Below, piece after piece: positions 5,636 through 61,325 of a DNA stretch of 64,000 nucleotides (position 1 is the first letter of the stretch; each line of letters starts with the position of its first letter). Where the stretch lies: the IMG/VR virus record IMGVR_UViG_3300028027_000059, positions 1 through 64,000 of that record; one strand, 5' to 3'. This DNA comes from a virus. The translations under genes were made by a program, and so were the position numbers. The notes below the pieces were generated by a model. The model saw nothing but the letters and a program-made list of their open reading frames with translations, was not told the DNA's origin and ran no database searches.

Positions 5636-6264
5636 TACTTAAACTTAAATCCTGTTAATTTTTCAACATCAGCAAGATCGACTTGATTGTTATGAATACC
5701 GTCTGCTTTAGTTGTATTGTTATCAAATATAAATGCCATGTATTCTTTAGACTTTTTAGTGTATATTACTTTCCAGCATTGAGTTGGTACTGAAGTTGTA
5801 CCTATTTTTTTAGCTACGCCTACTGAACCACACCATACTTTAACTGAATCGTCTTTAAGTGCAATTTCACGAGATAACATCTCTAATGCTTTCCAATCGC
5901 CTCTGTTTAATGCAGGGTATTGAGCAGTCATATTGCTGAAGAAGAATGATTCTTCGTTTGCTATTTGATCACATACCACATCAGCTGCAGGCATATTATG
6001 TCCGCGATCGAATCCAGCGCCTGTATAATCTGCTTGAAGATTTGTTTCATTTGGTAATTTTGGATCTGGGATGAATTTATCACCACGTTTTACTTTAACA
6101 GGACATGTTAAACCTGCTTTAGTAATCCACCATTCAACTTTAACTGGGTAGTGTTTTGATTTACTGTAATGCGTTGTATACGCTTTGTGAGTTAGTGTAA
6201 CTACATCTTGAGCTGTAACTGTGAAACTAACTAATAATAATAGGGCTAATAGGCATTTTTTCAT
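5635..6264 (-). CDS. secreted DNA/RNA non-specific endonuclease (Serratia NucA family)
   Basis: Signal peptide MKKCLLALLLLVSFTVTAQ. DRGHNMPAAD catalytic motif. FSNMTAQ supplies the metal-binding Asn. Confidence 0.7.
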   Translation of the reverse strand: MKKCLLALLLLVSFTVTAQDVVTLTHKAYTTHYSKSKHYPVKVEWWITKAGLTCPVKVKRGDKFIPDPKLPNETNLQADYTGAGFDRGHNMPAADVVCDQIANEESFFFSNMTAQYPALNRGDWKALEMLSREIALKDDSVKVWCGSVGVAKKIGTTSVPTQCWKVIYTKKSKEYMAFIFDNNTTKADGIHNNQVDLADVEKLTGFKFK

Positions 6265-6275
6265 GCCGATAAATA

Positions 6276-6542
6276 TCAGGCACCTAACATAACCTTGGAT
6301 AGCCATATACCAAATACACTACCTACTACACCACCTAAAGCATAACCTAACCATTGATGTAATGTATTGTCGCTATTAGCAATACGTTTGATTACGAAAT
6401 AACCTAACGTTGCAATTGCGAAGTCAGATAGTGCTGACCATATGTAATGTGCTTGTGCTACTGCTCTATAGTTGATAACTAATAAGCCATAGCTTAGTGT
6501 TTGTATTCCTAACATAATTAGGAACTCTTTTAACTTAACCAT
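6276..6542 (-). CDS. small two-helix transmembrane protein (holin-like?)
   Basis: 88 aa with two hydrophobic helices. Lies immediately upstream of the nuclease. Confidence 0.35.
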   Translation of the reverse strand: MVKLKEFLIMLGIQTLSYGLLVINYRAVAQAHYIWSALSDFAIATLGYFVIKRIANSDNTLHQWLGYALGGVVGSVFGIWLSKVMLGA

Positions 6543-6617
6543 TGTGATAACATTGAAATTACGATTGTTAAACCTAACATTATTAACGTTATAGCCATGA
6601 ATAAATCCCCTTCTTGT

Positions 6618-7143: not shown

Positions 7144-8865
7144 CTACCACCACGCGCGCTTGCGGTTTACGACCTCTGCGTTTGCATATTCGTTCTTCGG
7201 TAACGCCCCAATTTGTTTCCTTGACCTGTTTGTAAAAGGCCTGCCTAATTTTTTCCCAGTATTCTTTATCTTGTTCCATAGACTTAAATGTACGACTTCT
7301 GGTTGTGCCTCCTCGGATCTTAATCTATTAATGTCAGCTTCTAACTCCTGAATAATTCGTTGGTTATTTTTAATACCAGCTAACATTTGCATTTTGATTT
7401 TTACATCATTATCCAATGTTCCTAGCTCAATATTATCTAATAGTGAATAGTGCTTTTCAGCTACACGTTCATTAGCTTCAGCTACTTGGGATGCCATTGC
7501 ATCTTCAAGACGTTGCTGTGATAGTTCAGCCATTCTACTATCGTCAAATTCTCTATTAAGTGAATTAACAACTTGTTGTATATCATCATCATTCATTTGT
7601 GGTGGTGGAACTGGTTCTGTTACATCTCCACCATTCCATTCTCTAGTTAATTCTTGAATAAGTTGTTCTCTGTTATAATTTTCTGGATCTAATAGGCCAT
7701 TCACATATCGTTCTCCATTAGGGCCATATGTGATATGATCTCCATTAGATGTTATTCTCATTCTTTCAACCCCATCATCTGTAAATCTAATATTTCCATT
7801 TCTAACTTCTAAATCACCATGAACTTGTATTTGTGCTGTTGGTGTTGAAGTACCTAACCCTATTCCCACATTGGTTGTAGTTGAACTAACTGTAAATGTA
7901 TTTGGGTTGTAAGTGTAAATAGTACCAGTACCTGTTGATGGCCAATTTGTTATTGTTGTACCACTACTTTCAACATGGTCTATTATACCACCTGATCTAT
8001 ATGAATTATCTATACCAGGTCCTTCTTCATACATTCCTGGTCTGTAATTACCATCCCTATACATTTCTAATTTATCACTTTCCTCTTGAGTCATTAATGT
8101 CTGATTAGGAACAGGCATTTCTTTAATTTCATTTCTGATTGCCTCTAATACTGCTGATGGTGCTTCTGAATCTAATGCCTCAATTCTTCTATCAGTAACA
8201 TCCCACCATGAGAATTCATTATCATGATTTGGGTCTATATTTTTAAAGCAAGCTACTTTATAACCTGTTTTCTTATTAATATTATAAATCAATATGCCAC
8301 GAGATGAATAGCGAGCATAGTATTGACCTGTATTGGTTGTAGTACACCATTTAGTATTAGCACCATATTTCATTGATGCCTCTAGTGATAGTGGTCTTAA
8401 GGATACCCAAGTATCGTCCTCGTATACCTTTTTAATTTGTTTCTCTAATTTCTTATCTATTAATTTGATTTCAGCTAATGCAACTGCTTGCTCAATTTCT
8501 TCCCATGTTGAATAAGACGTAACATCAGTGTTTTCAATTAATTTACGTTCAATGAATGAAGCGAACTTAGTAAATCGTTTTATATTTTCATCACCAATCA
8601 TATAATTAAAAGTACCAAGTAAGAATTGTAATGTATCTAAATCAAGTGTTTGAATATAATTATAATCTAATCCTGTATGTGATACTATATACTCAACTAC
8701 TTCATTACGATAATTATCTGAATGATGGTTGAGTTTGTTTTTATCTAATTTAATAAGCATTTCAATATACTTATTAGATTGATTTGGTGATATCATTTTA
8801 AAGACATCAATAGCGCTCATAGCGTAGAGTGGATGTTGTTTCTTTAATTCGTCTATTCTTGACAT
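7144..8865 (-). CDS. large hypothetical protein with a fibre-like G/T/S/N-rich central segment and a C-terminal coiled coil
   Basis: 573 aa. Central NVGIGLGTSTPTAQIQVHGDLEV resembles fibre motifs. An out-of-frame ORF 7076..7279 overlaps its 3' end. Confidence 0.45.
   Translation of the reverse strand: MSRIDELKKQHPLYAMSAIDVFKMISPNQSNKYIEMLIKLDKNKLNHHSDNYRNEVVEYIVSHTGLDYNYIQTLDLDTLQFLLGTFNYMIGDENIKRFTKFASFIERKLIENTDVTSYSTWEEIEQAVALAEIKLIDKKLEKQIKKVYEDDTWVSLRPLSLEASMKYGANTKWCTTTNTGQYYARYSSRGILIYNINKKTGYKVACFKNIDPNHDNEFSWWDVTDRRIEALDSEAPSAVLEAIRNEIKEMPVPNQTLMTQEESDKLEMYRDGNYRPGMYEEGPGIDNSYRSGGIIDHVESSGTTITNWPSTGTGTIYTYNPNTFTVSSTTTNVGIGLGTSTPTAQIQVHGDLEVRNGNIRFTDDGVERMRITSNGDHITYGPNGERYVNGLLDPENYNREQLIQELTREWNGGDVTEPVPPPQMNDDDIQQVVNSLNREFDDSRMAELSQQRLEDAMASQVAEANERVAEKHYSLLDNIELGTLDNDVKIKMQMLAGIKNNQRIIQELEADINRLRSEEAQPEVVHLSLWNKIKNTGKKLGRPFTNRSRKQIGALPKNEYANAEVVNRKRAWW
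7283..7296 (-). promoter_or_regulatory. conserved promoter-like motif
   Basis: Minus sense GTCGTACATTTAAG, upstream of ATG 7279. Confidence 0.35.
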
Positions 8866-8901: not shown

Positions 8902-9969
8902 TTAGGCCTCCTCTTTACTCCAAAATGGTTTTTCGTATTTAGGTTTCATTAACTTCCAAATGATATGGTCATATGGTTTTCCATCCCACATTGCAAAGCA
9001 CACTGAACGATGTCCAGGCAATACATTACCTTTTTCTAGGTGTAATGCAAAGTCCTTTTTAGTTGGTTCAGGATCTACATCATTGTATTTACCATATCTA
9101 AAGTAATCATGTATTTTACCACAGTACTCTCTAATACTGTATTTACCATACTCAAATGATCTAATTTGGTCTCTAACCCACTTATCGAATTCATCTGGTA
9201 CTCGTTCTAAGAATGGTTCTAAATCGTCTCCATTCATCATCAATTCCCAAATGTCTTTAGATGAGAAATTAGTTAGTATTCTATGTAAACGAACATATTC
9301 TTCACCTTTGATTTTCATTCTCATACCTGATCTAAATCGAATAACATATCCTTCTTGGTTAGGATCGATCATTTGCTTCAACGCTTTATAATCGTTTATA
9401 CCATCATATCGTTTTACAACTTCAAATCCTTCACTAACCATATTATCAATACTACCTTCATTACCTGTTTCGTTATTATAAACCCCAATTACAATTAGTT
9501 TTTCAACCCCACCATAATCAACTACAATTCTATTTTCAGGATAAATAATTTCAAATAAGTAAGTATAACCAGGTATCATTCCATATTCAGTATTTTCCTT
9601 ATCTAATAGTTGTTTACCTTTAATAGCTTGTTCTGATGTGAATGATCCTTTGGAGGCGAAATGCCATTCTCCATTATAATGAAAAGCAATACCTAATGAT
9701 CCATCTAACTTTTCAGTTACAGTAAATGGTTCGTTTGGAATTGAATCCAATTCTTCCATATTGAAGAACTTAGGAAACGCCTTTGCTACAACGTTACCTT
9801 TATCATCTAAGATCAAACCACGACAAGTCATAGTAACATTATCCCATTTACCTTCGTATTGACAAGTACGAGAGTAATTGTATATTGATAAAGGTAAAGA
9901 TGGGTGGTCTTGTTTAATCACCAATCCATCCTCTATGTATTTATTTAATATATTTAAACTATATTTCAT
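8902..9969 (-). CDS. ATP-dependent RNA ligase (T4 Rnl1-like nucleotidyltransferase)
   Basis: Motif I TEKLDGSL (KxDGSL). Motif IV NQEGYVIRF. Motif V MRMKIKGEEY. Confidence 0.7.
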   Translation of the reverse strand: MKYSLNILNKYIEDGLVIKQDHPSLPLSIYNYSRTCQYEGKWDNVTMTCRGLILDDKGNVVAKAFPKFFNMEELDSIPNEPFTVTEKLDGSLGIAFHYNGEWHFASKGSFTSEQAIKGKQLLDKENTEYGMIPGYTYLFEIIYPENRIVVDYGGVEKLIVIGVYNNETGNEGSIDNMVSEGFEVVKRYDGINDYKALKQMIDPNQEGYVIRFRSGMRMKIKGEEYVRLHRILTNFSSKDIWELMMNGDDLEPFLERVPDEFDKWVRDQIRSFEYGKYSIREYCGKIHDYFRYGKYNDVDPEPTKKDFALHLEKGNVLPGHRSVCFAMWDGKPYDHIIWKLMKPKYEKPFWSKEEA

Positions 9970-23416: not shown

Positions 23417-23442
23417 AAGGGTAACCTTTCGGTTACCCTTAA
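23417..23442. terminator. perfect 10-bp hairpin
   Basis: aagggtaacc-tttc-ggttaccctt lies between the secreted-protein gene and the tmRNA 3' end. Confidence 0.5.
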
Positions 23443-23444
23443 TG

Positions 23445-23867
23445 TGGAGATGAGGGGAGTCGAACCCCTGTCTTTAATAGAGACAGCTATACCAGCGTGT
23501 CACACGTTTAGATCTGTTGCCTGATCAGTAGCTTTTGATCTACGTTTTAAGCTGATCAGTAAGGGCCGTACAGTTAAGTACCAAACCACCACTTTGTTTT
23601 ATGACTACAAAGAAAACTAATGATCACTCGAATCTTCCGCTAGTAGTGTGATCGTACTCCAGCTGTGCTGTTCTGTTGCAAGGCTATCAGCTGCCCCGTG
23701 CAATTAAGCCGCTAAAGCGTACTCGTTCGCGCCTACGAAAGACATTGCATCTTCGAAGGTCATAGTAGATAATTCTACGGTTATTGTTTTGCAAGTATTT
23801 AAAGACATTCTTACTTTGTCTACGTGTGGTATTACCTCTACAATTAAATCAATTCCAGGGCATCCCC
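23445..23867 (-). ncRNA. ssrA: tmRNA (SsrA)
   Basis: 5' GGGGAUG pairs with 3' CAUCUCC and includes a G3-U wobble. The T-arm is GGGGTTCGACTCCCC. The internal reading frame gcg aac gag tac gct tta gcg gct taa encodes the tag ANEYALAA*. Confidence 0.8.
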
Positions 23868-24248
23868 ATGTTTTTTACGTGGTTTCTTATCTAATATTTT
23901 CTTAACCTCAGCACATAATTCATACTCCTCAATTGCAATTAAATCGTTCAAACAATTGCTTAATAAATCAGTATACTGCGATTTTTCAATATTAAATATC
24001 ATTCCACTCATATCTTTGAATGTGATATCAAATATATCAATTCCGTCTTTATTTCGCTTATATGCGCTAAGTACACATTTAACCATTTTAAGAATCAAGT
24101 CGCTATCTCGTTCTTTCATTAGTTGAAAGAACTCACGTTGATCTTTTAATGTTAAACAATGACATGCCATGTAGATAAATATTTGAAAAAATACTAAGCA
24201 ACTCCCGAACTCTTGCCATGGGTGGTCTGGGAAAGCTGATTTGATCAA
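23844..24248 (-). CDS. hypothetical protein
   Basis: 134-aa ORF. Its 3' end overlaps the tmRNA 5' end by about 24 nt, so the true extent is uncertain. Confidence 0.3.
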   Translation of the reverse strand: MIKSAFPDHPWQEFGSCLVFFQIFIYMACHCLTLKDQREFFQLMKERDSDLILKMVKCVLSAYKRNKDGIDIFDITFKDMSGMIFNIEKSQYTDLLSNCLNDLIAIEEYELCAEVKKILDKKPRKKHGDALELI

Positions 24249-24292
24249 GACCAGACTCGGCCACTCATTCCTTGCGGATAGTATTTTTTTTG

Positions 24293-24378
24293 TGCCTCAG
24301 GCGGGAATCGAACCCGCACTCGCGTTGCGGCGAACAGGATTTTAAGTCCTGCGTGTCTACCAGTTCCACCACCAAGGC
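24293..24378 (-). tRNA. tRNA-Leu(TAA)
   Basis: Anticodon arm CAGGA-CTTAAAA-TCCTG, long variable arm, T-loop GGTTCGATTCC. Confidence 0.7.
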
Positions 24379-24384
24379 ATTAGC

Positions 24385-24545
24385 TGTAGGGGCTGGAATC
24401 GAACCAGCACGCAGCGATTCAATAAATGACAAAATAGCCGGCTTTGTGGTCAACCCCTATCATTTATCTATCTCGTTATCTGCACCCACGAGACGAGTGG
24501 GCGTGTATTCCAGTGGCGTACGCCTTTTCACCACCCTACAGTTTT
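24385..24545 (-). ncRNA. atypical ~160-nt tRNA-like element
   Basis: 3' T-arm GCTGGTTCGATTCCAGC. Acceptor-like 5' TGTAGGG pairs with 3' CCCTACA. About 65 extra internal nucleotides, so an intron or degenerate gene is possible. Confidence 0.3.
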
Positions 24546-24799
24546 TAATTAATACTGTCTTCTGTAAGATCAATATTAAACTTAGTTTGATTAATTCTAG
24601 CTTGTTCAGCTTCTTTAACCATATTAATCCAAGTTATAGACACATCAACTGGGGCTAATATCCAAGCCATAATTAAAACCATTATGGAATCCATTTCTGG
24701 TGATGTTCCATAATCAACACCTCTTGTTTTGTATTTTTTACTTAACTGATAGAAACAGTAAATAATACAAATAACGTAATACGTTAAAAAAATATTCAT
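24545..24799 (-). CDS. small membrane protein
   Basis: 84 aa with two TM helices. Confidence 0.35.
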   Translation of the reverse strand: MNIFLTYYVICIIYCFYQLSKKYKTRGVDYGTSPEMDSIMVLIMAWILAPVDVSITWINMVKEAEQARINQTKFNIDLTEDSIN

Positions 24800-24804
24800 A
24801 ATCT

Positions 24805-25263
24805 TTATTTTACTAAGTGATCTGCAGCATAAGTCATAATTGGTGAGTTACCTTTATGTCTTACTGCATATCCCATTCCTGTTACAATACCAACAGCGCT
24901 CGTTAATGCAGCATTTGATTTGTATTTTGGATCTGGATTTAGGTCAATATCAATCCACTTTGCTGCCACTCCAACCTCGTTTTTAATTATTTCAGCAGTT
25001 TCTACAGACATCCAAACTTCATTTAATAAACGATTTACGTTTTCACGTTCACGCGTTGTGGTAAAACGAGAGTATAATACGTGAGCACCTTTACCTGGTG
25101 TGTACAAACCAATTACGATAGCATAAATGGTTTCACGTTTTCTATTTTGTGAATCACAACCAACCAATATTTCTATATTTGGATGTTGCGAAACATACTC
25201 TTTTACGTAATCAATTAGTTCAATTTTTTTATTTGAAACTAATGTTTTGAATTGCCTTTCCAT
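24805..25263 (-). CDS. DUF458/YkuK-family protein (RNase H-like fold)
   Basis: ILVGCDSQNRKRETIYAIVIGLYTPGKGAH matches the vGtDSQ...GkG core of the family. Confidence 0.5.
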   Translation of the reverse strand: MERQFKTLVSNKKIELIDYVKEYVSQHPNIEILVGCDSQNRKRETIYAIVIGLYTPGKGAHVLYSRFTTTRERENVNRLLNEVWMSVETAEIIKNEVGVAAKWIDIDLNPDPKYKSNAALTSAVGIVTGMGYAVRHKGNSPIMTYAADHLVK

Positions 25264-25296
25264 AGCTGTTTTATTTCATAGATAAATATATTTTGG

Positions 25297-25378
25297 TACC
25301 CCATGAGGGAGTCGAACCCTCAATGCCTAAGGCGCTAGATCCTAAATCTAGTGTGTCTACCAATTCCACCAACGGGGC
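25297..25378 (-). tRNA. tRNA-Leu(TAG)
   Basis: Anticodon arm CTAGA-TTTAGGA-TCTAG, long variable arm. Confidence 0.7.
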
Positions 25379-25383
25379 ATTCA

Positions 25384-25487
25384 AATCAGGACAGGAATCA
25401 AACCTGTTTCAGCTTTATCATACAGAGTGCCATTAGCAGTTAGTCTCAACCTGGAGGGTGCTATGTTATCAATACACTACCTGATTT
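25384..25487 (-). ncRNA. ~105-nt tRNA-like element, anticodon unassigned
   Basis: Acceptor AATCAGG/CCTGATT, T-arm ACAGGTTTGATTCCTGT, long internal region. Confidence 0.3.
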
Positions 25488-25489
25488 TG

Positions 25490-25563
25490 AGGTCTTAATA
25501 GGATTCGAACCTATATAAATTCCTTAGAAGGGAATTGTACTAAATCCATTGTACGATAAGACC
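25490..25563 (-). tRNA. tRNA-Arg(TCT)
   Basis: Acceptor GGTCTTA/TAAGACC. Anticodon loop CTTCTAA. Confidence 0.7.
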
Positions 25564-25568
25564 AATTG

Positions 25569-25641
25569 AGCGAGTAGTCAGAATCGAACTGACATATCCT
25601 ACTTGGAAGGAAGGCATAATAAGCCATTATACTATACTCGC
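25569..25641 (-). tRNA. tRNA-Gly(TCC)
   Basis: Acceptor GCGAGTA/TACTCGC. Anticodon loop CTTCCAA. Confidence 0.6.
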
Positions 25642-25693
25642 CTGGAGAGGGACACGTTATTTATCCGTTTAAGGGACTCCCTCAGACCCTATG

Positions 25694-25765
25694 AGCTCAG
25701 TAACAGACTCGAACTGTTGTCTAATGATTACAAATCACTTGTTCTACCTACTGAACTAACCGAGC
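25694..25765 (-). tRNA. tRNA-Thr(TGT)
   Basis: Anticodon arm AGTGA-TTTGTAA-TCATT. T-loop AGTTCGAGTCT. Confidence 0.65.
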
Positions 25766-25969
25766 TTATTCAGGCCAGACTTAGGTTTCGTCTTTGGCCC
25801 TACTTAATAGTTGTGTTTAGAGGGAAGTCATAAACACGGTATTCACCAAAAGCGACTTTACTTTCAGATATCGTCGAAACTTTTAACCACGCTCAATTTA
25901 TATTTTTTAATTGTTTCTTTAACGTTAAAACAATTGTCTTAAATTGAGAAAGACAAAAAATACGACCTG

Positions 25970-26041
25970 TTGCGGGAGCCGGATTTGCACCGACGACTAG
26001 GAGCTTATGAGACTCCTCTGCTACTGCTGCATCATCCCGCA
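25970..26041 (-). tRNA. tRNA-Met(CAT), elongator or Ile2-like
   Basis: Anticodon arm GGAGT-CTCATAA-GCTCC. No three consecutive G-C pairs, so it is not called as initiator. Confidence 0.6.
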
Positions 26042-26046
26042 ATATG

Positions 26047-26119
26047 TGGATTCTGAGGGTCACGATCCCCCGACCTCGACATTATGAGTGTCTTGCTCTA
26101 CCAGCTGAGCTAAGAATCC
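26047..26119 (-). tRNA. tRNA-Met(CAT), second copy
   Basis: Acceptor GGATTCT/AGAATCC. D-arm GCTC-AGCTGGTA-GAGC. Anticodon loop CTCATAA. Confidence 0.6.
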
Positions 26120-26198
26120 ATATAACAACTACCCACAATTTTTCATAGGCACCTCCTTGTCATGCAATGGTTGACCAAGCGGCAGGTAGCATTATTAG

Positions 26199-26272
26199 CA
26201 CAACGTATGGGATTCGAACCCATGAACTCCTCCGTGACAGGGAGGCATGATAGACCACTTCACTAACGCTGT
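26199..26272 (-). tRNA. tRNA-Asp(GTC)
   Basis: Anticodon arm CCTCC-CTGTCAC-GGAGG. T-arm ATGGGTTCGAATCCCAT. Confidence 0.7.
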
Positions 26273-26279
26273 ATATTAG

Positions 26280-26351
26280 TACTCTGTACGGGATTCGAAC
26301 CCGTATTACCTCCGTGAAAGGGAGGTGAACTAACCCTTATTCGAACAGAGC
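26280..26351 (-). tRNA. tRNA-Glu(TTC)
   Basis: Anticodon arm CCTCC-CTTTCAC-GGAGG. Confidence 0.7.
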
Positions 26352-26360
26352 ATTCTTATA

Positions 26361-26375
26361 ATGTGAATATACGAC
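26361..26375 (-). promoter_or_regulatory. conserved promoter-like motif immediately upstream of tRNA-Glu
   Basis: Minus-strand sense GTCGTATATTCACAT. Confidence 0.4.
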
Positions 26376-26398
26376 TTTTATTTCGCCATTCACATTTG

Positions 26399-26480
26399 TT
26401 GAAGTGGAGGGACTCGAACCCCCGAACTCGAAAGAGAGCTGATTTACAGTCAGCTGCCATTGCCACTAGGCGACACTTCA
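26399..26480 (-). tRNA. tRNA-Tyr(GTA)
   Basis: Anticodon arm GCTGA-CTGTAAA-TCAGC. Long variable arm. Confidence 0.65.
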
Positions 26481-26485
26481 ATTTG

Positions 26486-26557
26486 CGCGGATGGAGAATT
26501 ACGATATCTCGACCTTGAACTTAACAGGTTCCTGCTCTGCCTCTGAGCTACATCCAC
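26486..26557 (-). tRNA. tRNA-Asn(GTT)
   Basis: Acceptor GTGGATG/CATCCGC. D-arm GCTC-AGAGGCA-GAGC. Anticodon loop CTGTTAA. The T-loop ATCGTAA is atypical. Confidence 0.5.
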
Positions 26558-26562
26558 TATTG

Positions 26563-26635
26563 TGCTTATGGGAAGACTCGAACTTCCAACTTCACGCGTA
26601 TCAGGCGTGTGCTCTCACCATTGAACTACATAAGC
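26563..26635 (-). tRNA. tRNA-Ile(GAT)
   Basis: Acceptor GCTTATG/CATAAGC. Anticodon arm CACGC-CTGATAC-GCGTG. Confidence 0.7.
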
Positions 26636-26840
26636 TTGAGCCCCGATACCAGCTTTCCATCGAACTCGGGGCATGATTCGCGTCGTACTGGGTCTGCGGA
26701 GAGTGGAGGTAACGATCCTCCTCGACTTTTACATCGGCCTCAGTTTAGCAAACTGGCCAGTTACCTTTCCTGCAACTCTCCATTTTAGTAGTTTTTTAAG
26801 TCATATCGAGGGACGGAGATACCAGCTCCTAAACTCGGGG
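26636..26840 (-). other. ~200-nt structured spacer with a duplicated element
   Basis: CCCCGAGTT...AGCTGGTATC occurs at both ends. GGAG-CTGGTAT-CTCC is an anticodon-arm-like hairpin. No canonical tRNA fold was found by hand. Confidence 0.3.
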
Positions 26841-26915
26841 TGGGGTGTAAGGACGGTATCGAACCGTCTTATCTGGCTCCACAAACCAGCGCATCACCTT
26901 AATGCTTCAAACACC
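26841..26915 (-). tRNA. tRNA-His(GTG)
   Basis: Extra G-1 opposite C73, and the CCA end is encoded. Anticodon arm CTGGT-TTGTGGA-GCCAG. T-arm GACGGTTCGATACCGTC. Two U-U mismatches in the acceptor stem. Confidence 0.6.
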
Positions 26916-26916
26916 G

Positions 26917-26981
26917 TATTGAGGAATCGAACCTCCTTCCCAACTAGCGGTCAGGCGATACTCCAGTATCCTTGCCGGTTG
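26917..26981 (-). ncRNA. tRNA-like element with a canonical T-loop but no assignable cloverleaf
   Basis: GGAGGTTCGATTCCTC is present, but the acceptor pairing is poor. Confidence 0.25.
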
Positions 26982-27067
26982 AGGTAGGTGCCGGATTCGA
27001 ACCCGCGAACCTGTTACGGCTTCTAGTTTTCAAGACTAGTGCAATCGACCAACTCTGCCAACCTACC
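26982..27067 (-). tRNA. tRNA-Ser(TGA)
   Basis: Acceptor GGTAGGT/ACCTACC. Anticodon arm CTAGT-CTTGAAA-ACTAG. Long variable arm. Confidence 0.7.
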
Positions 27068-27073
27068 TTATTG

Positions 27074-27145
27074 TTGTCCCTCAGGGATTCGAACCCCAAC
27101 TATCTGGACCAAAACCAGATGTACTAGCCGTTATACTAAAGGACA
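27074..27145 (-). tRNA. tRNA-Gln(TTG)
   Basis: Anticodon arm TCTGG-TTTTGGT-CCAGA. Confidence 0.6.
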
Positions 27146-27230
27146 ATATCCAATTTTGTTATCGCCATTCCCCCAGGTGTGCTTTATACACTAATCTTCC
27201 CGGAGTGCGTTCCTGATTGGTAACAGTTTG

Positions 27231-27306
27231 TAGAAGATATAGGATTCGAACCTATGATCTCTTGCATGTAAGGCAAGCGCTTTAAGACCAGCTAAGCGAA
27301 TCTTCT
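27231..27306 (-). tRNA. tRNA-Val(TAC)
   Basis: D-arm GCTT-AGCTGGTCTTA-AAGC. Anticodon arm CTTGC-CTTACAT-GCAAG. Confidence 0.65.
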
Positions 27307-27370
27307 ATGGGAGGAGACTGAATTTTACTTCACCCCTGTCGACATTGGGTAAGCTTTCGCTAATCTCCTG

Positions 27371-27443
27371 TGGAGAAGGTGGAACTCGAATCCACAACCT
27401 CATGCTTGCAAAGCACGTGCTCATCCACTAGAGCTTCATCCCC
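27371..27443 (-). tRNA. tRNA-Ala(TGC)
   Basis: G3-U70 identity pair. D-arm GCTC-TAGTGGAT-GAGC. Anticodon arm CGTGC-TTTGCAA-GCATG. Confidence 0.65.
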
Positions 27444-27448
27444 ATTTG

Positions 27449-27523
27449 TCGGGTAAGCAGGACTCGAACCTGCATGATGTCCACATCCCAAATGTGGCGA
27501 CTTAGCCATTAGTCCACTACCCG
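27449..27523 (-). tRNA. tRNA-Pro(TGG)
   Basis: Anticodon arm CCACA-TTTGGGA-TGTGG. Confidence 0.7.
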
Positions 27524-27529
27524 TTTTTG

Positions 27530-27600
27530 AGTCACGTGTTGGAGTCGAACCAACCTCAAGGGATTTGCAGTCCCTTACCTAACCGCTCGGCCAACCTGAC
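27530..27600 (-). tRNA. tRNA-Cys(GCA)
   Basis: Anticodon arm AGGGA-CTGCAAA-TCCCT. Confidence 0.65.
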
Positions 27601-27606
27601 TTATTG

Positions 27607-27680
27607 TACTCTCGAGTGGATTCGAACCACTACCCCTTGATCCGTAGTCAAGAATTCTGATCCATTAAACTACAAGAGCA
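27607..27680 (-). tRNA. tRNA-Arg(ACG)
   Basis: Anticodon arm CTTGA-CTACGGA-TCAAG. Confidence 0.6.
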
Positions 27681-27684
27681 TTCG

Positions 27685-27755
27685 CACGGATACCAGGACT
27701 CGAACCTAGAACAGCAGTTTTGGAGACTGTTATGATGCCATTTCACTATACCCGT
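27685..27755 (-). tRNA. tRNA-Trp(CCA)
   Basis: Acceptor ACGGGTA/TATCCGT. Anticodon loop CTCCAAA. Confidence 0.55.
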
Positions 27756-27783
27756 ATTTTCATCTATGTCAAAGATCCTTTCG

Positions 27784-27857
27784 TTCCCCCGGTGAGGCTC
27801 GAACTCACAACCCCATGGTTAAAAGCCACGTACTCTAGCCAATTGAGCTACAAGGGA
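27784..27857 (-). tRNA. tRNA-Lys(TTT)
   Basis: D-arm GCTC-AATTGGCTA-GAGT. Anticodon arm CGTGG-CTTTTAA-CCATG. Confidence 0.65.
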
Positions 27858-27934
27858 ATATTCGTTCCCTCTTGCTTCAGAGGGACTACTTACGTTTTCG
27901 TTTTAACATTTTTGTTTTCATAGTTGTTGTGTTG

Positions 27935-28007
27935 TGGTGAACCTCAGTTCCGACCTGAGTCCTCTAGATTTTCAGTCTAGTGCTTCTACCAAGTTAGCTT
28001 GATCACC
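27935..28007 (-). tRNA. tRNA-Phe(GAA)
   Basis: Acceptor GGTGATC/GTTCACC. Anticodon arm CTAGA-CTGAAAA-TCTAG. Confidence 0.65.
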
Positions 28008-28012
28008 ATAAA

Positions 28013-28050
28013 AAAAGCCCTGAATCTTTTGAATCCAGGGCTTGTAATAT
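28013..28050 (-). terminator. rho-independent terminator (minus strand) ahead of the tRNA array
   Basis: The 8-bp stem aagccctg...cagggctt is followed on the minus strand by TTTTTTTAT. Confidence 0.55.
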
Positions 28051-56466: not shown

Positions 56467-57099
56467 TTAGAATTTTGTTCCATTTACTTCAATTGCGTGT
56501 AAGAATTCTTCACGAATTAAATTTTCTTTTTCCATAAATACACCACTAAACTTATTTGTAGTCATAGTAGAACCATGTTTAATACCTCTGTGTGAACAAC
56601 ATGTATGCTTACAAGCAATACTAACTGCTACTGATTCACACTGCATTTTATCAGCAATATAATCATGAATTTGTGTTGTTAATGACTCTTGCATTTGTGG
56701 TCTACGTCCAAACCATTCAACTATACGATTTAATTTACTTAAACCAATAACGTTTTCTGCTGGTACATAAGCTACTGTAGCATAACCTGTAAATGCTAAA
56801 TTGTGGTGAGCACACATACTAACAATAGGGATACCTGATTGGATTACTAACCCATCGTAGCCTTCATCATTAGGGAATACTGTAATATTTGGTTCATCAC
56901 TAACTGATCCTACGATTAGGTCTTTTAACCATGCTTTAGCTACACGACGAGGTGTATCTACTGTTTGTCTATCAGCTGTGTAGTCAAATCCCACTGCATT
57001 AAGGAAATTTCCGTATGCTTTAGCTGCTTTATCAATCATTTGCTCAATTTCTTTTGGTGTACGAGCTAAACTACCATTTGATTTTTTTAATAATTCCAT
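56467..57099 (-). CDS. folE: GTP cyclohydrolase I (FolE)
   Basis: VSMCAHHNLAF is the CxHH zinc motif. QMQESLTTQI. Confidence 0.8.
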   Translation of the reverse strand: MELLKKSNGSLARTPKEIEQMIDKAAKAYGNFLNAVGFDYTADRQTVDTPRRVAKAWLKDLIVGSVSDEPNITVFPNDEGYDGLVIQSGIPIVSMCAHHNLAFTGYATVAYVPAENVIGLSKLNRIVEWFGRRPQMQESLTTQIHDYIADKMQCESVAVSIACKHTCCSHRGIKHGSTMTTNKFSGVFMEKENLIREEFLHAIEVNGTKF

Positions 57100-59402: not shown

Positions 59403-60203
59403 TTATTTACTGTGTTGCGCTAATACTTCTTCAACATGAGCCTTAGCTACTTCCCATGTTACAGGTCCTGTTTCGTCAGCATATGCTACAGGATCAGGAC
59501 GATCTAATTTAATAAATGCTTCAATACGTTCTACTGATGAAGCTGATTTGTAATCGGAATACCACACGCCGTCAATTTCAATTGGTTTGTAGGAAGTATT
59601 TGTACGTTTGTACACTTCGTTAAAATCAATATTTAATTTAGCACATGCTGCATTTCCACTTTTTAAAATATCAAATTTATTTATTTGAAGATAAGGAGTC
59701 ATTATAGTTATTTTTTCAGTACCCCAATTACCTAATCTAAATGTTTTAAAATCAAAATCACGAAATTCTTCTCTACAATCAGGATATATAGCATGATCAC
59801 CAGCATGAATACCCATTGCTATAGCACATTCAGTATCTTTTTTAGTTGAAATAGATAATGCTACTGCTTGAATAATAGAACTAAATATTTTATTACGATT
59901 AGGTACAACTGTTTCTTTCATGTTGTCTTGTTCGTAATGTCCTTCTGGTACATCATTACCACCTTCAACTAATGATGAGTTTAGTAATTGTGATAAACCA
60001 TCTAATTTAATAACCTGATAAGTTACTGGTAGATTGTGTGATTTTAAGTAATCAACTAATTCTTGTGCTCGTTGTAATTCAACTTTATGTTTTTGACCAT
60101 AATCAAAACCTAATGCTGTTACTTCAAATTGAGCTGATAGTAAATGGATTAATAATGAACTACTGTCCATTCCTCCAGATAATGATAAAACTGCTTGTTT
60201 CAT
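59403..60203 (-). CDS. queC: 7-cyano-7-deazaguanine synthase (QueC)
   Basis: PP-loop SLSGGMDSS. Confidence 0.8.
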   Translation of the reverse strand: MKQAVLSLSGGMDSSSLLIHLLSAQFEVTALGFDYGQKHKVELQRAQELVDYLKSHNLPVTYQVIKLDGLSQLLNSSLVEGGNDVPEGHYEQDNMKETVVPNRNKIFSSIIQAVALSISTKKDTECAIAMGIHAGDHAIYPDCREEFRDFDFKTFRLGNWGTEKITIMTPYLQINKFDILKSGNAACAKLNIDFNEVYKRTNTSYKPIEIDGVWYSDYKSASSVERIEAFIKLDRPDPVAYADETGPVTWEVAKAHVEEVLAQHSK

Positions 60204-61036: not shown

Positions 61037-61325
61037 AGTGTTTTAGTTTTTTCTTTAATCTATTAATTCTAATTTGACAATACCATTTACCCATATTACC
61101 AGAGGCGTTAGCATATCTATCCTCCCAATACTTAATACCCTCATTTGTTTTTTTATTTGCTTTTTCAAGTATATCTATATCATAATAACTATGATTTTCT
61201 AGCAATTCATCTTCAGTAGGAATACGAGGATTATTTGCCTCATATTCTTCACGAAGCATTCTGCGACGAGATTTTTCTTGATTTTTTTCAAATTTTTTAC
61301 TCATAAATAGCAGTATTTTTACCAT
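61026..61325 (-). CDS. hypothetical basic protein
   Basis: 99-aa ORF. Confidence 0.35.
   Translation of the reverse strand: MVKILLFMSKKFEKNQEKSRRRMLREEYEANNPRIPTEDELLENHSYYDIDILEKANKKTNEGIKYWEDRYANASGNMGKWYCQIRINRLKKKLKHYEN

What the first reader, a model, noticed from the sequence alone, without database searches (positions are those of the whole stretch)
23445..28050. tmRNA plus an array of at least 23 tRNAs on one strand, with several non-canonical tRNA-like elements
Hand folding yields tRNAs for Leu(TAA), Leu(TAG), Arg(TCT), Gly, Thr, Met x2, Asp, Glu, Tyr, Asn, Ile, His, Ser(TGA), Gln, Val, Ala, Pro, Cys, Arg(ACG), Trp, Lys and Phe. tRNA-His has G-1 and an encoded CCA. tRNA-Ala carries the G3-U70 pair. 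The tmRNA (23445-23867) encodes the tag ANEYALAA. A rho-independent terminator at 28013-28050 precedes the array.

Three elements do not fit a cloverleaf:
- 24385-24545 is about 160 nt between perfect acceptor halves and a canonical T-arm;
- 25384-25487 is about 105 nt;
- 26636-26840 is a 200-nt spacer bracketed by duplicated CCCCGAGTT...GCTGGTATC boxes and containing an anticodon-arm-like hairpin GGAG-CTGGTAT-CTCC.

These could be intron-containing tRNAs, permuted or split tRNAs, processing signals, or small RNAs.
Basis: seen in the sequence. Interest (0 to 1): 0.62.

Follow-up and report, generated by a model that had tools for sequence, protein, structure and literature searches.

The report
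Phage tRNA array hiding tRNA-like RNAs
A large phage carries a tmRNA and 24 tRNA genes, and one odd element among them is a copy of an apparently undescribed tRNA-shaped RNA that Bacteroidota bacteria keep beside their asparagine-regulator gene and that bears the recognition marks for loading with aspartate and conversion to asparagine.

Summary
The array is real. It lies on the minus strand and holds a tmRNA (tag ANEYALAA) and 24 tRNAs covering all 20 amino acids.

Of the three "non-cloverleaf" elements:
- **26636-26840** is not odd. It holds a divergent tRNA-Ser(GCU) flanked by conserved spacer hairpins.
- **Element B (25383-25486)** is a rare tRNA-framed RNA. It has a nearly invariant, poorly folding 48-nt core. 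Its function is unknown.
- **Element A (24384-24540)** is the important one.

Element A belongs to a covariation-supported family of 141-198 nt. The family is found in more than 120 phage contigs and about 100 Bacteroidota chromosomes. It has no match in Rfam, cultured phages or the searchable literature.

The fold is a cloverleaf with a giant ~85-nt variable arm. Its conserved bases match the five strong aspartate identity determinants (G73, G34, U35, C36, C38), plus G2-C71, plus U1-A72, which is the mark read by the GatCAB amidotransferase. Position 37 is always U, which is non-decoding.

In bacteria the gene lies divergently beside an asnC orthologue, where E. coli has asnA.

Best inference, untested: a non-decoding RNA on which aspartate is converted to asparagine, captured by phages. 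Phage copies add a self-complementary tip that suggests dimerisation.

The parts
23444..23867 (-). tmRNA, tag peptide ANEYALAA
   Evidence: ARAGORN; Rfam RF00023 64.2 bits, E 1e-23
23417..23440 (-). terminator-like hairpin plus T run directly after the tmRNA (end of the RNA operon)
23844..24170 (-). ORF of about 108 aa between tRNA-Leu(UAA) and the tmRNA; no family match
24292..24378 (-). tRNA-Leu(UAA)
   Evidence: 57.2 bits
24384..24540 (-). Element A: tRNA-shaped RNA of 157 nt (U1 to G73; C74 at 24383). Acceptor strands 24534-24540 and 24385-24391. D loop with inserted palindrome GGCGUACGCC at 24515-24524. Anticodon-type stem 24497-24501 / 24485-24489 with loop UCGUCUC at 24490-24496. Giant variable arm 24411-24483, with invariant GGGGUUGACCAC at 24446-24457 and tip palindrome AGCCGGCU at 24436-24443. 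T arm 24392-24408.
   Evidence: CM R1 152.6 bits, against <= 43 bits for ordinary tRNAs; alignments A1 and A2 with covariation; coordinates
24545..24799 (-). ORF of 84 aa inside the array; no family match
24805..25263 (-). RNase H-like DUF458 protein gene inside the array. It was the marker used to fetch related phage loci.
   Evidence: Pfam PF04308 E 3e-19; 54 related IMG/VR loci
25294..25378 (-). tRNA-Leu(UAG)
25383..25486 (-). Element B: tRNA-framed RNA of 104 nt. Acceptor strands 25480-25486 and 25384-25390. D arm 25463-25477. Conserved core 25413-25460. T arm 25391-25407.
   Evidence: homologues at L119:1958-2060, L177:686-788 (= L178) and L183:193-294
25489..25563 (-). tRNA-Arg(UCU)
25568..25641 (-). 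tRNA-Gly(UCC)
25642..25692 (-). Thr-Gly spacer; conserved at 89-94% in five distant contigs
25693..25765 (-). tRNA-Thr(UGU)
25766..25968 (-). AT-rich 203-nt Met-Thr gap; 100 nt of it is 86% identical in L099
25969..26041 (-). tRNA with anticodon CAU (Met, fMet or Ile2 not distinguished)
26046..26119 (-). tRNA with anticodon CAU (second copy)
26120..26197 (-). Asp-Met spacer; conserved at 79-81% in L130 and L151
26198..26272 (-). tRNA-Asp(GUC), canonical, anticodon loop CUGUCAC
26279..26351 (-). tRNA-Glu(UUC)
26398..26480 (-). tRNA-Tyr(GUA)
26485..26557 (-). tRNA-Asn(GUU)
26562..26635 (-). tRNA-Ile(GAU)
26636..26695 (-). Ser-Ile spacer holding the second CCCCGAGUU...GCUGGUAUC box, which forms the hairpin CCCCGA...UCGGGG
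26696..26781 (-). tRNA-Ser(GCU), divergent (T loop AUCGUUA).
   Evidence: ARAGORN; orthologues; not scored by Rfam
26782..26840 (-). His-Ser spacer holding the first CCCCGAGUU...GCUGGUAUC box and the GGAG-CUGGUAU-CUCC hairpin; 78-91% identical in L042/L043, L071 and L022, always just after a tRNA
26841..26914 (-). tRNA-His(GUG) with G-1 and encoded CCA
26915..26980 (-). Ser-His spacer with a T-arm-like hairpin GGAGGUUCGAUUCCUC; 84% identical in L036
26981..27067 (-). tRNA-Ser(UGA)
27073..27145 (-). tRNA-Gln(UUG)
27146..27229 (-). Val-Gln spacer; 82-83% identical over all 84 nt in L121 and L138
27230..27306 (-). tRNA-Val(UAC)
27370..27443 (-). tRNA-Ala(UGC) with G3-U70
27448..27523 (-). tRNA-Pro(UGG)
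27529..27600 (-). tRNA-Cys(GCA)
27606..27679 (-). tRNA-Arg(ACG)
27684..27755 (-). tRNA-Trp(CCA)
27783..27857 (-). tRNA-Lys(UUU)
27935..28007 (-). tRNA-Phe(GAA)
   Evidence: Rfam 44.5 bits; ARAGORN only at a lowered threshold
28015..28043 (-). terminator-like hairpin (12 pairs) plus T run, 5-7 nt before tRNA-Phe

Best explanation
**Shown**
- The region is the RNA operon of a large, distantly T4-like phage, probably infecting Bacteroidota. It holds 24 tRNAs for all 20 amino acids and a tmRNA, interleaved with conserved non-tRNA RNAs.
- Element A is a phage copy of a cellular tRNA-shaped RNA family. The fold has a 7-bp acceptor stem, U8, a 3-bp D stem with a tRNA-Leu-type D loop, a 5-bp anticodon-type stem with the 7-nt loop YYGUCUC, an ~85-nt three-helix variable arm, and a canonical T arm.
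- In Bacteroidota chromosomes the RNA is a separate gene, with promoter-like and terminator-like flanks. It lies divergently ~180 nt from an asnC orthologue.

**Inferred mechanism**
1. After tRNA-type processing (RNase P, 3' trimming, CCA completion after the encoded C74), aspartyl-tRNA synthetase charges the RNA. The RNA keeps all five strong aspartate determinants (G73, G34, U35, C36, C38) and G2-C71.
2. GatCAB then amidates the bound aspartate to asparagine, because the RNA has the U1-A72 pair that marks GatCAB substrates.
3. U37, the frequent C33 and the huge arm keep the RNA out of decoding. It therefore acts as a carrier for asparagine synthesis under AsnC control, in the genomic position where E. 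coli has asnA.
4. The phage copy would boost or take over this step during infection.
5. Its G/C-rich self-complementary tip suggests that phage versions act as dimers.

**Other elements**
- Element B and the conserved spacers are most simply further small RNAs released from the same precursor by tRNA processing. B uses a tRNA top half as its processing and stability frame.
- Element C is a tRNA-Ser(GCU).
For: **The family is real**
- Alignment A1 (24 phage copies): 97.9% of cells paired against 42-53% for slid controls, 24/36 pairs with compensatory changes, 0/500 shuffles reach this.
- Alignment A2 (69 bacterial copies): 97.7% against 49-59%, 23/34 pairs, 0/500.
- Covariance model R1 scores family members at >= 100 bits and ordinary tRNAs at <= 43 bits.

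**Spread**
- About 100 chromosomal copies in Chitinophaga, Pedobacter, Spirosoma, Flectobacillus, Arcicella, Aquirufa, Saprospiraceae and Cyclobacteriaceae.

**Identity marks**
- U1-A72, G2-C71 and U3-A70 are invariant in sets retrieved without using them (69/69 bacterial, 100/107 phage).
- GUCUC is invariant in the 24 copies retrieved without using it.
- It is also kept in two divergent copies found only by the model (L010, L002).
- Literature: the Asp determinants are G73, G34, U35, C36 and C38, with G2-C71 minor. U1-A72 confers amidation, and G1-C72 and U20a block it (PMC9976931; PMC4206432).

**asnC link**
- The regulator lies within 600 nt and divergent in 68 of 99 copies, median 176 nt.
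- NCBIfam AsnC E 1e-47 against Lrp 1e-9.
- 42% identity to E. coli AsnC over the full length.
- E. coli asnC and asnA are divergent, 151 nt apart.

**Phyletic fit**
- Orders holding the RNA are GatCAB-positive even though they also have AsnRS (and most also GlnRS). Pedobacter heparinus has no AsnA or AsnB.
- Flavobacteriales and Bacteroidales are mostly GatCAB-negative (Table S1 of PMC4206432).

**Own transcription unit:** TAnnTTTG about 35 nt upstream in a subset, and a hairpin plus U run downstream.

**Palindromic tip**
- At least 6 nt in 94/100 phage copies, at least 10 nt in 64/100, and more than 20 different palindromes.
- The shuffled null gives 18% at >= 6 nt. Bacterial copies match the null.
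Against: - Nothing here shows expression, charging or amidation.
- The review says G1-C72 helps place the acceptor end in E. coli AspRS. The family has U1-A72, although non-discriminating AspRS enzymes do accept tRNA-Asn, which has that pair.
- From general knowledge: class II synthetases face the variable region, so an 85-nt arm might clash.
- No step is known that would release asparagine from a non-decoding carrier.
- Many host genera also have AsnB (Chitinophaga has 3 copies), so the RNA cannot be the only route to asparagine.
- In Cytophagales the asnC-like gene is followed by sufBCD, and its ligand is unknown.
- The genome scan stopped at 120 rows, so the phyletic pattern is provisional. 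There are three exceptions:
  - Sphingobacterium sp. 21 lacks GatCAB.
  - Polaribacter has GatCAB.
  - One MAG labelled Bacteroidaceae carries the RNA beside asnC.
- Part of the invariance (GUCUC, GGGWWGACCAC, GGUUCGA) is built into the search pattern used for most copies.
- The window encodes no GatCAB, AspRS or asparagine synthetase.
- Its Asn content of 6.1% is unremarkable.
Confidence: 0.4

Rival explanations
1. Element A and its family are decoys. They mimic the tRNA-Asp anticodon loop and acceptor end to soak up a protein that reads them. Candidates are AspRS or GatCAB (a regulatory titration under AsnC control), tRNA-guanine transglycosylase, or, for the phage copy, a host anticodon nuclease or tRNA-end-modifying toxin. 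No product needs to be made on the RNA.
For: - The same identity marks apply.
- U37, the C33 variants and the giant arm all argue against decoding.
- The phage also carries a T4-type RNA ligase at 8902-9969 and preQ0 genes. This points to conflict over tRNA damage and over queuosine-type (GUN) anticodons.
- The dimerising tip could raise avidity for dimeric targets.
Against: - A decoy for a phage-defence toxin does not explain the chromosomal copies or their asnC linkage.
- U33 is replaced by C in about a quarter of phage copies. From general knowledge, transglycosylase recognition uses U33-G34-U35.
- A pure titrator would not need U1-A72 and G73-C74 to be invariant together.
Confidence: 0.2
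2. The tRNA shape is only a processing and stability frame, as proposed for T4 species 1 and 2 RNAs and for the tRNA module of YrlA. The working part is the conserved big arm (GGAUAAAC/GCUAAC or CGAAAUAG/UGAAUCG loops, GGGGUWGACCAC), which binds an unknown protein or RNA. On this view the Asp-like loop is an inherited relic.
For: - The most conserved non-tRNA bases lie in the big arm.
- Element B and the many AGUCAGG-frame RNAs keep a constant tRNA top half while their cargo is unrelated. This shows that such phages do use tRNA frames as scaffolds.
- T4 rnaC has a canonical T arm.
Against: - A relic would not keep G34, U35, C36, C38, G73, G2-C71 and U1-A72 invariant across phages and four bacterial orders while the neighbouring stems covary freely.
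- This view gives no account of the asnC neighbour.
Confidence: 0.2
3. Elements A and B are tRNA genes interrupted by introns or insertions that are removed to give working tRNAs. ARAGORN proposals were Gln(UUG) with a 72-nt intron for A and a CUA suppressor with an 18-nt intron for B.
For: - ARAGORN in intron mode makes these calls.
- A related contig holds a tRNA-Leu(UAA) orthologue with a 26-nt insertion in its anticodon loop (L052:637-749).
Against: - The proposed anticodon stems are poor and are not conserved in homologues.
- No group I intron or ribozyme family matches.
- In A the extra sequence is in the variable-arm position. It covaries as part of the mature fold and is conserved from phages to bacteria.
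- From general knowledge, bacteria have no splicing system for short tRNA introns.
Confidence: 0.03
4. Element A is a decoding tRNA-Asp isoacceptor with an unusually long variable arm.
For: It has a GUC anticodon in a 7-nt loop, Asp determinants and a canonical T arm.
Against: - Position 37 is U in every copy, and position 33 is C in about a quarter of phage copies.
- It has U1-A72 in place of the G1-C72 that the review calls strictly conserved in bacterial tRNA-Asp.
- The phage already has a canonical tRNA-Asp at 26198-26272.
Confidence: 0.03

Closest known systems
Phage T4 species 1 and species 2 RNAs (rnaC, rnaD) in the T4 tRNA cluster
   Same: They are small stable RNAs of 119-139 nt encoded among phage tRNA genes and co-transcribed with them. 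rnaC ends in a canonical T arm (CCGGGUUCGAAUCCCGG). Their function has been unknown for decades (general knowledge).
   Different: - Model R1 does not hit them. The only T4 hit is tRNA-Ser at 30 bits, so they are analogues, not homologues.
- No cellular counterpart of the T4 RNAs is known (general knowledge).
- They lack the Asp-type loop.
tRNA-Asn as substrate of the transamidosome (non-discriminating AspRS plus GatCAB)
   Same: It has G73, G34 and U35, and the U1-A72 pair read by GatCAB. In some bacteria this route is the only way to make asparagine (PMC4206432, PMC9976931).
   Different: - Family A has C36 (the Asp anticodon, so even a discriminating AspRS should accept it).
- It also has U37, a tRNA-Leu-type D arm and an 85-nt variable arm.
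- It should not decode, so any asparagine made on it would have to leave the RNA.
YrlA / bacterial Y RNAs (tRNA-mimicking partners of Ro60/Rsr)
   Same: They are non-coding RNAs with a tRNA-like module that is a substrate for RNase P, CCA addition and tRNA modification enzymes. They are found in bacteria and in phages (PMC4201824).
   Different: - In YrlA the RNA ends form the Ro-binding stem and the 'acceptor' is closed by a loop. Family A has free acceptor ends.
- Rfam YrlA does not match A or B.
- No Ro60 gene was seen in the window.
tmRNA
   Same: It has a tRNA-like top half with a large functional insertion in place of the lower half. It is processed and charged like a tRNA, and it is present in the same operon.
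   Different: - tmRNA has G3-U70 (alanine identity), no anticodon arm, pseudoknots and a tag reading frame.
- Family A keeps an anticodon-type arm and places its insertion in the variable region.
Class II tRNAs (Leu, Ser, Tyr), tRNA-Sec and allo-tRNAs
   Same: They have a 3-bp D stem with a large D loop (GAAAUUGGCAGAC resembles tRNA-Leu GGAAUUGGUAGAC) and a helical variable arm. They have G73, as in Ser and Sec.
   Different: - The variable arm is four to five times longer and has three helices.
- Family A has a 7/5 acceptor/T geometry, not 8/5, 8/4 or 9/3 (PMC5389517).
- It has G73 where Leu has A73.
- Its anticodon is GUC.
Non-proteinogenic tRNA-Gly of Staphylococcus (cell-wall synthesis)
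   Same: These are tRNA-derived carriers that are charged but kept out of translation and feed a biosynthetic pathway. This is general knowledge and is the nearest functional precedent.
   Different: They are of normal tRNA size and shape. They donate glycine to peptidoglycan, not serving as the site where one amino acid is converted to another.

Membership tests
tRNA (Rfam RF00005), the 24 array genes | Covariance-model score at or above the gathering threshold, or a cloverleaf with a 7-nt anticodon loop | tested here: met
   23 genes score 41.8-70.1 bits against a threshold of 29. tRNA-Ser(GCU) at 26696-26781 is called by ARAGORN only and is not scored by Rfam.
tmRNA (RF00023) | Full-length model match plus a tag reading frame ending in ...ALAA | tested here: met
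   64.2 bits against 47, model positions 1-374; tag ANEYALAA
Intron-containing tRNA (bacterial group I type) | Group I intron core inserted in the anticodon loop | tested here: not met
   No intron or ribozyme family matches at E <= 5. The extra sequence is 50-85 nt. In A it lies between the anticodon-type arm and the T arm.
Permuted or split tRNA | 3' half encoded before the 5' half, or the two halves at separate loci | tested here: not met
   A and B run colinearly from the 5' acceptor strand to the 3' acceptor strand.
T4 rnaC / rnaD | Sequence and structure homology to the T4 species 1 or 2 RNAs | tested here: not met
   R1 search of T4 66000-76000 hits only tRNA-Ser, at 30 bits.
YrlA (RF02553) | Ro-binding terminal stem with an internal tRNA-like module | tested here: not met
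   The only sub-threshold YrlA hit lies on tRNA-Asn/Ile. The topology differs.
tRNA-Asp (aspartate acceptor) | Strong determinants G73, G34, U35, C36 and C38 | tested here: met
   All are invariant in A1 and A2 and in the model-found copies L010 and L002. Determinants are from PMC9976931.
tRNA-Asp (aspartate acceptor) | G1-C72 strictly conserved in bacterial tRNA-Asp; purine at position 37; short variable loop | tested here: not met
   The family has U1-A72, U37 and an ~85-nt arm in all copies.
tRNA-Asp (aspartate acceptor) | Actual aspartylation by AspRS | not testable with these tools
   Needs an aminoacylation assay.
GatCAB substrate (as for tRNA-Asn) | U1-A72 pair and no extra U20a in the D loop | tested here: met
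   U1-A72 is present in 69/69 bacterial and 24/24 phage aligned copies. The D loop reads ...UUGG-C-A-G..., with no extra base after G19 (read by eye).
GatCAB substrate (as for tRNA-Asn) | The host genome encodes GatCAB | tested here: inconclusive
   This was checked only at genus or order level from a published table, not in the genomes that carry the RNA.
tRNA-Leu | A73 discriminator with a Leu-type D arm | tested here: not met
   The D arm matches, but the discriminator is G in all copies of A. B homologues have A73, while the window copy has U73.
tRNA-Sec / allo-tRNA | 8/5, 8/4 or 9/3 acceptor/T geometry; UCA anticodon for Sec | tested here: not met
   The geometry is 7/5 and the loop holds GUC.

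The most novel reading that the evidence does not exclude
Family A is a dedicated RNA cofactor for amino-acid biosynthesis. It is a non-decoding, tRNA-shaped carrier on which AspRS and GatCAB make asparagine. In Bacteroidota it is switched on by AsnC in place of asparagine synthetase A. Large phages have captured it repeatedly as an auxiliary metabolic RNA gene and remodelled it into a dimer. More broadly, phage tRNA arrays would then be operons for many tRNA-framed small RNAs, not only tRNAs.
Probability: 0.35. Interest if true: 0.92.

Novelty: new variant of a known kind. Interest (0 to 1): 0.8.

Why it matters
**The open question it would address.** Some bacteria keep GatCAB although they already have both AsnRS and GlnRS, and it is unclear how those without asparagine synthetase obtain free asparagine. 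If the inference holds, the answer is a tRNA-like carrier that carries Asp marks for the synthetase and the Asn/Gln mark for the amidotransferase.

**What else would follow.**
- It would be a rare case of an RNA gene standing in the genomic and regulatory place of an enzyme gene (asnA).
- It would be the first auxiliary metabolic gene of phages that is an RNA.

**Value independent of function.**
- The family is large, strongly covarying, absent from Rfam, and shared between cells and viruses.
- The phage-specific palindromic tip is a clean, testable prediction of RNA dimerisation.

**Practical consequences.**
- tRNA finders skip these genes or mis-call them as intron-bearing tRNAs.
- 'Spacers' in phage tRNA arrays should be treated as candidate RNA genes.
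- The family gives a host marker (non-Flavobacteriales, non-Bacteroidales Bacteroidota) for uncultured phages.

Tried and rejected
- **Rfam** at gathering and at E <= 5 gave nothing for A or B, or for 8 bacterial loci.
- **Cultured-phage collection:** no relative of the whole region, of A (phage or bacterial version) or of B.
- **Exact 32-mer of A** in IMG/VR gave no hit.
- **One IMG/VR scan was wasted** on a wrong gap range.
- **The single metagenome scan** used too loose a B pattern. It returned almost only chance hits, with one true B copy, L183.
- **ARAGORN intron calls** for A (Gln) and B (CUA) were rejected as not conserved.
- **Obligate link between A and the DUF458 gene** was rejected. 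Of the motif-retrieved phage hits, 54 have at least 1.5 kb of flank on both sides and no DUF458 gene.
- **Homology of A to T4 rnaC/rnaD** was rejected.
- **Folding of the B core** found no stable or conserved structure, about -5 kcal/mol.
- **Antisense targets of the B core** in the window: only its own complement.
- **An ordinary tRNA-Leu sharing the AGUCAGG frame:** none found.
- **Actinomycete and other non-Bacteroidota genome hits** are chance matches in protein genes, GGGAAGACCAC in P-loop-type ATPase motifs.
- **Loop-loop pairing between GUCU and AGAC in A:** both partners are invariant, so there is no covariation test. Not pursued.
- **Anti-Shine-Dalgarno reading** of CCUCC in the A stem was rejected because the stem covaries.
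- **Enrichment of Asn in the phage proteins** is not informative (6.1%).
- **Literature searches** for a described Bacteroidota or phage RNA of this kind found none. One survey of IMG/VR structured RNAs mentions unnamed tRNA-like candidates and may contain the family (PMC10690425).

Full report
**1. Observation**

ARAGORN and Rfam agree on a minus-strand RNA gene cluster between 23444 and 28007.
- It holds a tmRNA at 23444-23867 (64.2 bits, tag ANEYALAA).
- ARAGORN tRNAs, and Rfam adds tRNA-Phe(GAA) at 27935-28007.
- All 20 amino acids are covered.
tRNA-His has G-1 and an encoded CCA. tRNA-Ala has G3-U70.
- A 12-pair hairpin plus T run lies at 28015-28043 just before tRNA-Phe, and another follows the tmRNA at 23417-23440.

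Three protein genes sit inside the cluster: an RNase H-like DUF458 gene (24805-25263), an 84-aa ORF and a ~108-aa ORF.

The window comes from a large phage.
- All genes are on one strand and the G+C content is ~32%.
- It has a T4-type family B polymerase, only 36% identical to the nearest cultured phage.
- It also encodes GroEL, ClpP, a T4-type RNA ligase, preQ0 synthesis genes and sugar-modifying enzymes.
- Nothing in the cultured-phage collection resembles the region at the DNA level.

**2. The third 'odd' element is a tRNA**

Positions 26696-26781 fold as tRNA-Ser(GCU).
- The same tRNA is found in related contigs. In L022 it has a canonical T loop.
- The window copy has the T loop AUCGUUA, which explains why Rfam misses it.
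CCCCGAGUU...GCUGGUAUC occurs in the His-Ser spacer and again in the Ser-Ile spacer.
- The first copy is 78-91% identical in four other contigs, always directly after a tRNA.

**3. Element A is a member of a large RNA family**

Retrieval of relatives:
- Using the DUF458 protein as a handle, 54 related IMG/VR loci were fetched, at 47-81% protein identity.
- BLASTN and a structural pattern found A-like sequences in about half of them.
This gave 107 distinct copies of 141-198 nt.

The fold:
- a 7-bp acceptor stem, followed by U8 G9;
- a 3-bp D stem with the loop AAAUUGGCAGA, which resembles tRNA-Leu, sometimes with an inserted hairpin;
- a 5-bp stem with the 7-nt loop YYGUCUC;
- a three-helix arm of ~85 nt in the variable-arm position, with conserved internal loops and the block GGGGUWGACCAC;
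- a canonical T arm, then G73 and C74.

Covariation is strong.
- On 24 phage copies, 97.9% of cells pair against 42-53% for slid controls. 24 of 36 pairs show compensatory changes. No shuffle out of 500 reaches this.
- A covariance model scores members at >= 100 bits (window copy 152.6) and ordinary tRNAs at <= 43 bits.
- The model does not hit T4 rnaC or rnaD.

**4. The family is cellular as well**

- About 100 hits are full-length homologues in chromosomes of Bacteroidota. The genera and families are Chitinophaga, Pedobacter, Spirosoma, Larkinella, Flectobacillus, Arcicella, Aquirufa, Niastella, Saprospiraceae (sometimes 2-3 tandem copies), Cyclobacteriaceae and other Cytophagales.
- The remaining hits, in actinomycetes and others, are chance matches inside protein genes.
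- None of eight bacterial loci tested has any Rfam match.
- An independent alignment of 69 bacterial copies supports the same fold: 97.7% paired against 49-59% slid, 23 of 34 pairs compensatory, 0/500 shuffles.
- The bacterial genes look like separate transcription units. A Bacteroidota-type TAnnTTTG element lies ~35 nt upstream in a subset, and a hairpin plus U run lies downstream.

**5. What the conserved bases say**

- U1-A72, G2-C71, U3-A70, G73 and C74 are invariant in sets that were retrieved without using them.
- GUCUC is invariant in the set retrieved without using it. It is also kept in two divergent copies found only by the model.
- With a 5-bp stem and a 7-nt loop, GUCUC occupies positions 34-38. 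The loop differs from the tRNA-Asp loop CUGUCAC only at position 37.
- The identity review lists exactly G73, G34, U35, C36 and C38 as the five strong aspartate determinants, with G2-C71 as a minor one.
- The same review states that amidation of Asp-tRNA-Asn by the amidotransferase is conferred by U1-A72. It is blocked in tRNA-Asp by G1-C72 and U20a (PMC9976931; also PMC4206432).
- The family therefore combines the marks for AspRS with the mark for GatCAB.
- It also carries features that should keep it out of decoding. U37 is present in every copy. C33 occurs in about a quarter of phage copies. The variable arm is enormous.

**6. Genomic company**

- In 68 of 99 bacterial copies, a gene for a ~155-aa regulator lies within 600 nt and is divergently oriented (median 176 nt). 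It is the only consistently linked gene.
- The regulator matches NCBI's AsnC model at E 1e-47, against 1e-9 to 1e-13 for Lrp. It is 42% identical to E. coli AsnC over the full length without gaps.
- In E. coli, asnC is divergent from asnA, 151 nt apart. The RNA therefore sits where asparagine synthetase A sits in E. coli.
- A published census gives the following (PMC4206432, Table S1):
  - GatCAB present together with AsnRS and GlnRS: Chitinophaga, Pedobacter, Spirosoma, Dyadobacter, Runella, Emticicia, Niastella and Haliscomenobacter.
  - Pedobacter heparinus has neither AsnA nor AsnB.
  - GatCAB absent: Bacteroides, Prevotella, Porphyromonas, Flavobacterium, Gramella, Zobellia, Cellulophaga and Capnocytophaga.
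- This matches the orders in which the RNA was and was not found. The exceptions and the truncated scan are noted under evidence against.

**7. Mechanism proposed**

Shown:
- the fold;
- the conserved bases;
- the asnC neighbourhood;
- presence in phage tRNA operons.

Inferred, in order:
1. tRNA-type processing and CCA completion.
2. Aspartylation by AspRS.
3. Amidation by GatCAB to give Asn on the RNA.
4. Exclusion from the ribosome.
5. Control by AsnC.
6. For the phage, reinforcement of this step during infection.

How asparagine would leave the carrier is not explained.

Rivals are a decoy or titrator of proteins that read tRNA-Asp-type loops, and a scaffold model in which the big arm is the working part. 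The intron and decoding-tRNA readings are unlikely.

**8. A phage-specific twist**

- In 94 of 100 phage copies the tip of the big arm is a perfect palindrome of at least 6 nt. In 64 of 100 it is at least 10 nt.
- More than 20 different sequences occur, for example GCUUGCAAGC, GCCGGCCGGC and UCCUGCAGGA. The window copy has AGCCGGCU.
- The shuffled null gives 18% at >= 6 nt.
- The central four bases could not pair within a hairpin, yet they are always self-complementary. This points to pairing between two molecules.
- Bacterial copies do not show the feature.

**9. Element B and the wider picture**

Element B (25383-25486):
- It has a 7-bp acceptor stem, a D arm and a T arm. These covary with its three known homologues (L119, L177/L178, L183).
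- It has a 48-nt core, CACCCUCCAGGUUGAGA..GCUAAUGGCACUCUGUAUGAUAAAG. The core is almost invariant between very distant phages.
- The core has no stable predicted fold and no antisense target in the window.

Related RNAs elsewhere:
- The frame of the B homologues is AGUCAGG-UG-GCGGAAUGGUAGACGC...ACAGGUUCGAAUCCUGU-CCUGACU-A.
- This frame recurs up to five times per contig in other phages (L105, L157, L119, L118, L183), with unrelated 40-100-nt inserts.
- No ordinary tRNA shares this frame.

Spacers:
- In the window itself, six inter-tRNA 'spacers' are 78-94% identical to sequences in contigs whose proteins have diverged to ~50% identity.
- The cluster is therefore best seen as an operon that yields tRNAs, a tmRNA and a set of other small RNAs, cut out by the same processing enzymes. 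T4 is a modest precedent.

**10. Novelty and verdict**

- The tRNA/tmRNA array is ordinary for a large phage.
- Element A is not ordinary. No Rfam family, cultured phage or paper in the searchable library describes it. A bulk survey of IMG/VR structured RNAs may contain it unnamed.
- I classify it as a new variant of the known kind 'tRNA-derived non-decoding RNA'.
- There is about a one-in-three chance that it is something more: an RNA carrier for asparagine synthesis captured by phages.

Noticed in passing
L105, L157, L119, L118, L183, L135, L124, L066, L072 (for example L105:5130-5276, 6143-6262, 6478-6616, 7683-7830, 7947-8052): A constant tRNA-like frame (AGUCAGG-UG-GCGGAAUGGUAGACGC ... 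ACAGGUUCGAAUCCUGU-CCUGACU-A) recurs up to five times per phage contig, with unrelated 40-100-nt inserts in place of the anticodon and variable arms. It looks like a tRNA-top-half scaffold carrying varied cargo. The discriminator is A73 and the D arm is Leu-like.
   Followed up: partly
L052:637-749: This is an orthologue of the window's tRNA-Leu(UAA), with the same acceptor, D arm and anticodon stem. It carries a 26-nt insertion inside the anticodon loop (CUUAA-CGGGGUUAGCCACUCGCUUCUCCGUU-AA). That is far too short for a group I intron.
   Followed up: no
L053:2930-3012 and L054:2493-2581: These are class II-shaped tRNAs (long variable arm, Leu-like D arm) with a UUG (Gln) anticodon and G at the discriminator position (L053 has a U1·U72 mismatch). 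They could be recoding or mis-charging tRNAs. They score 43 bits with the family A model.
   Followed up: no
window 25642-25692, 26120-26197, 26782-26840, 26915-26980, 27146-27229, and part of 25766-25968: Inter-tRNA 'spacers' are 78-94% identical to sequences in distantly related phage contigs, so they are probably further small RNA genes or processing modules. The Ser-His spacer contains a T-arm-like hairpin, GGAGGUUCGAUUCCUC.
   Followed up: partly
window 56467-57099, 59403-60203, 61297-61758: Genes for GTP cyclohydrolase I, QueC and QueD (preQ0 / 7-deazaguanine synthesis). This is relevant to queuosine at G34 of GUN anticodons (Asp, Asn, His, Tyr, and possibly element A) or to DNA modification.
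   Followed up: no
window 8902-9969: A T4 Rnl1-type RNA ligase gene (Pfam RNA_lig_T4_1, E 2e-17). Pfam hits to a cyclic-phosphate-processing receiver domain and a kinase-like AAA_33 domain occur elsewhere in the window. Together they suggest a tRNA repair system.
   Followed up: no
window 24805-25263: An RNase H-like DUF458 gene is embedded in the tRNA array. Homologues occur in KVP40-like Vibrio phages, in huge uncultured phages and in 54 IMG/VR contigs, often directly next to family A. It may be a tRNA or RNA processing nuclease.
   Followed up: partly
window 24171-24291: The region after tRNA-Leu(UAA) holds a GGUCUGG...CCAGACC hairpin, a T-loop-like GAGUUCGGGAG and a T run. ARAGORN at a low threshold proposed a tRNA-like fold. 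No homologue was found in the fetched loci.
   Followed up: partly
window 27745-27772: There is a near-consensus sigma-70-type promoter match (TTGACA-16-TATAGT, 11/12) in the Lys-Trp spacer. The count of such sites in the region is no higher than in shuffles, and Bacteroidota promoters differ.
   Followed up: no
L300:3550-4250 and L339:250-1030 (Saprospiraceae); L403, L407, L312, L322, L387: Several bacteria carry two or three tandem copies of the family A gene. L322 has a truncated copy just upstream of a full one.
   Followed up: no
L347, L313, L334 and other Cytophagales loci: The asnC-like gene next to the RNA is followed in the same orientation by sufB and sufC (27 and 17 of 94 loci respectively). 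The regulator may therefore have targets other than the RNA.
   Followed up: no
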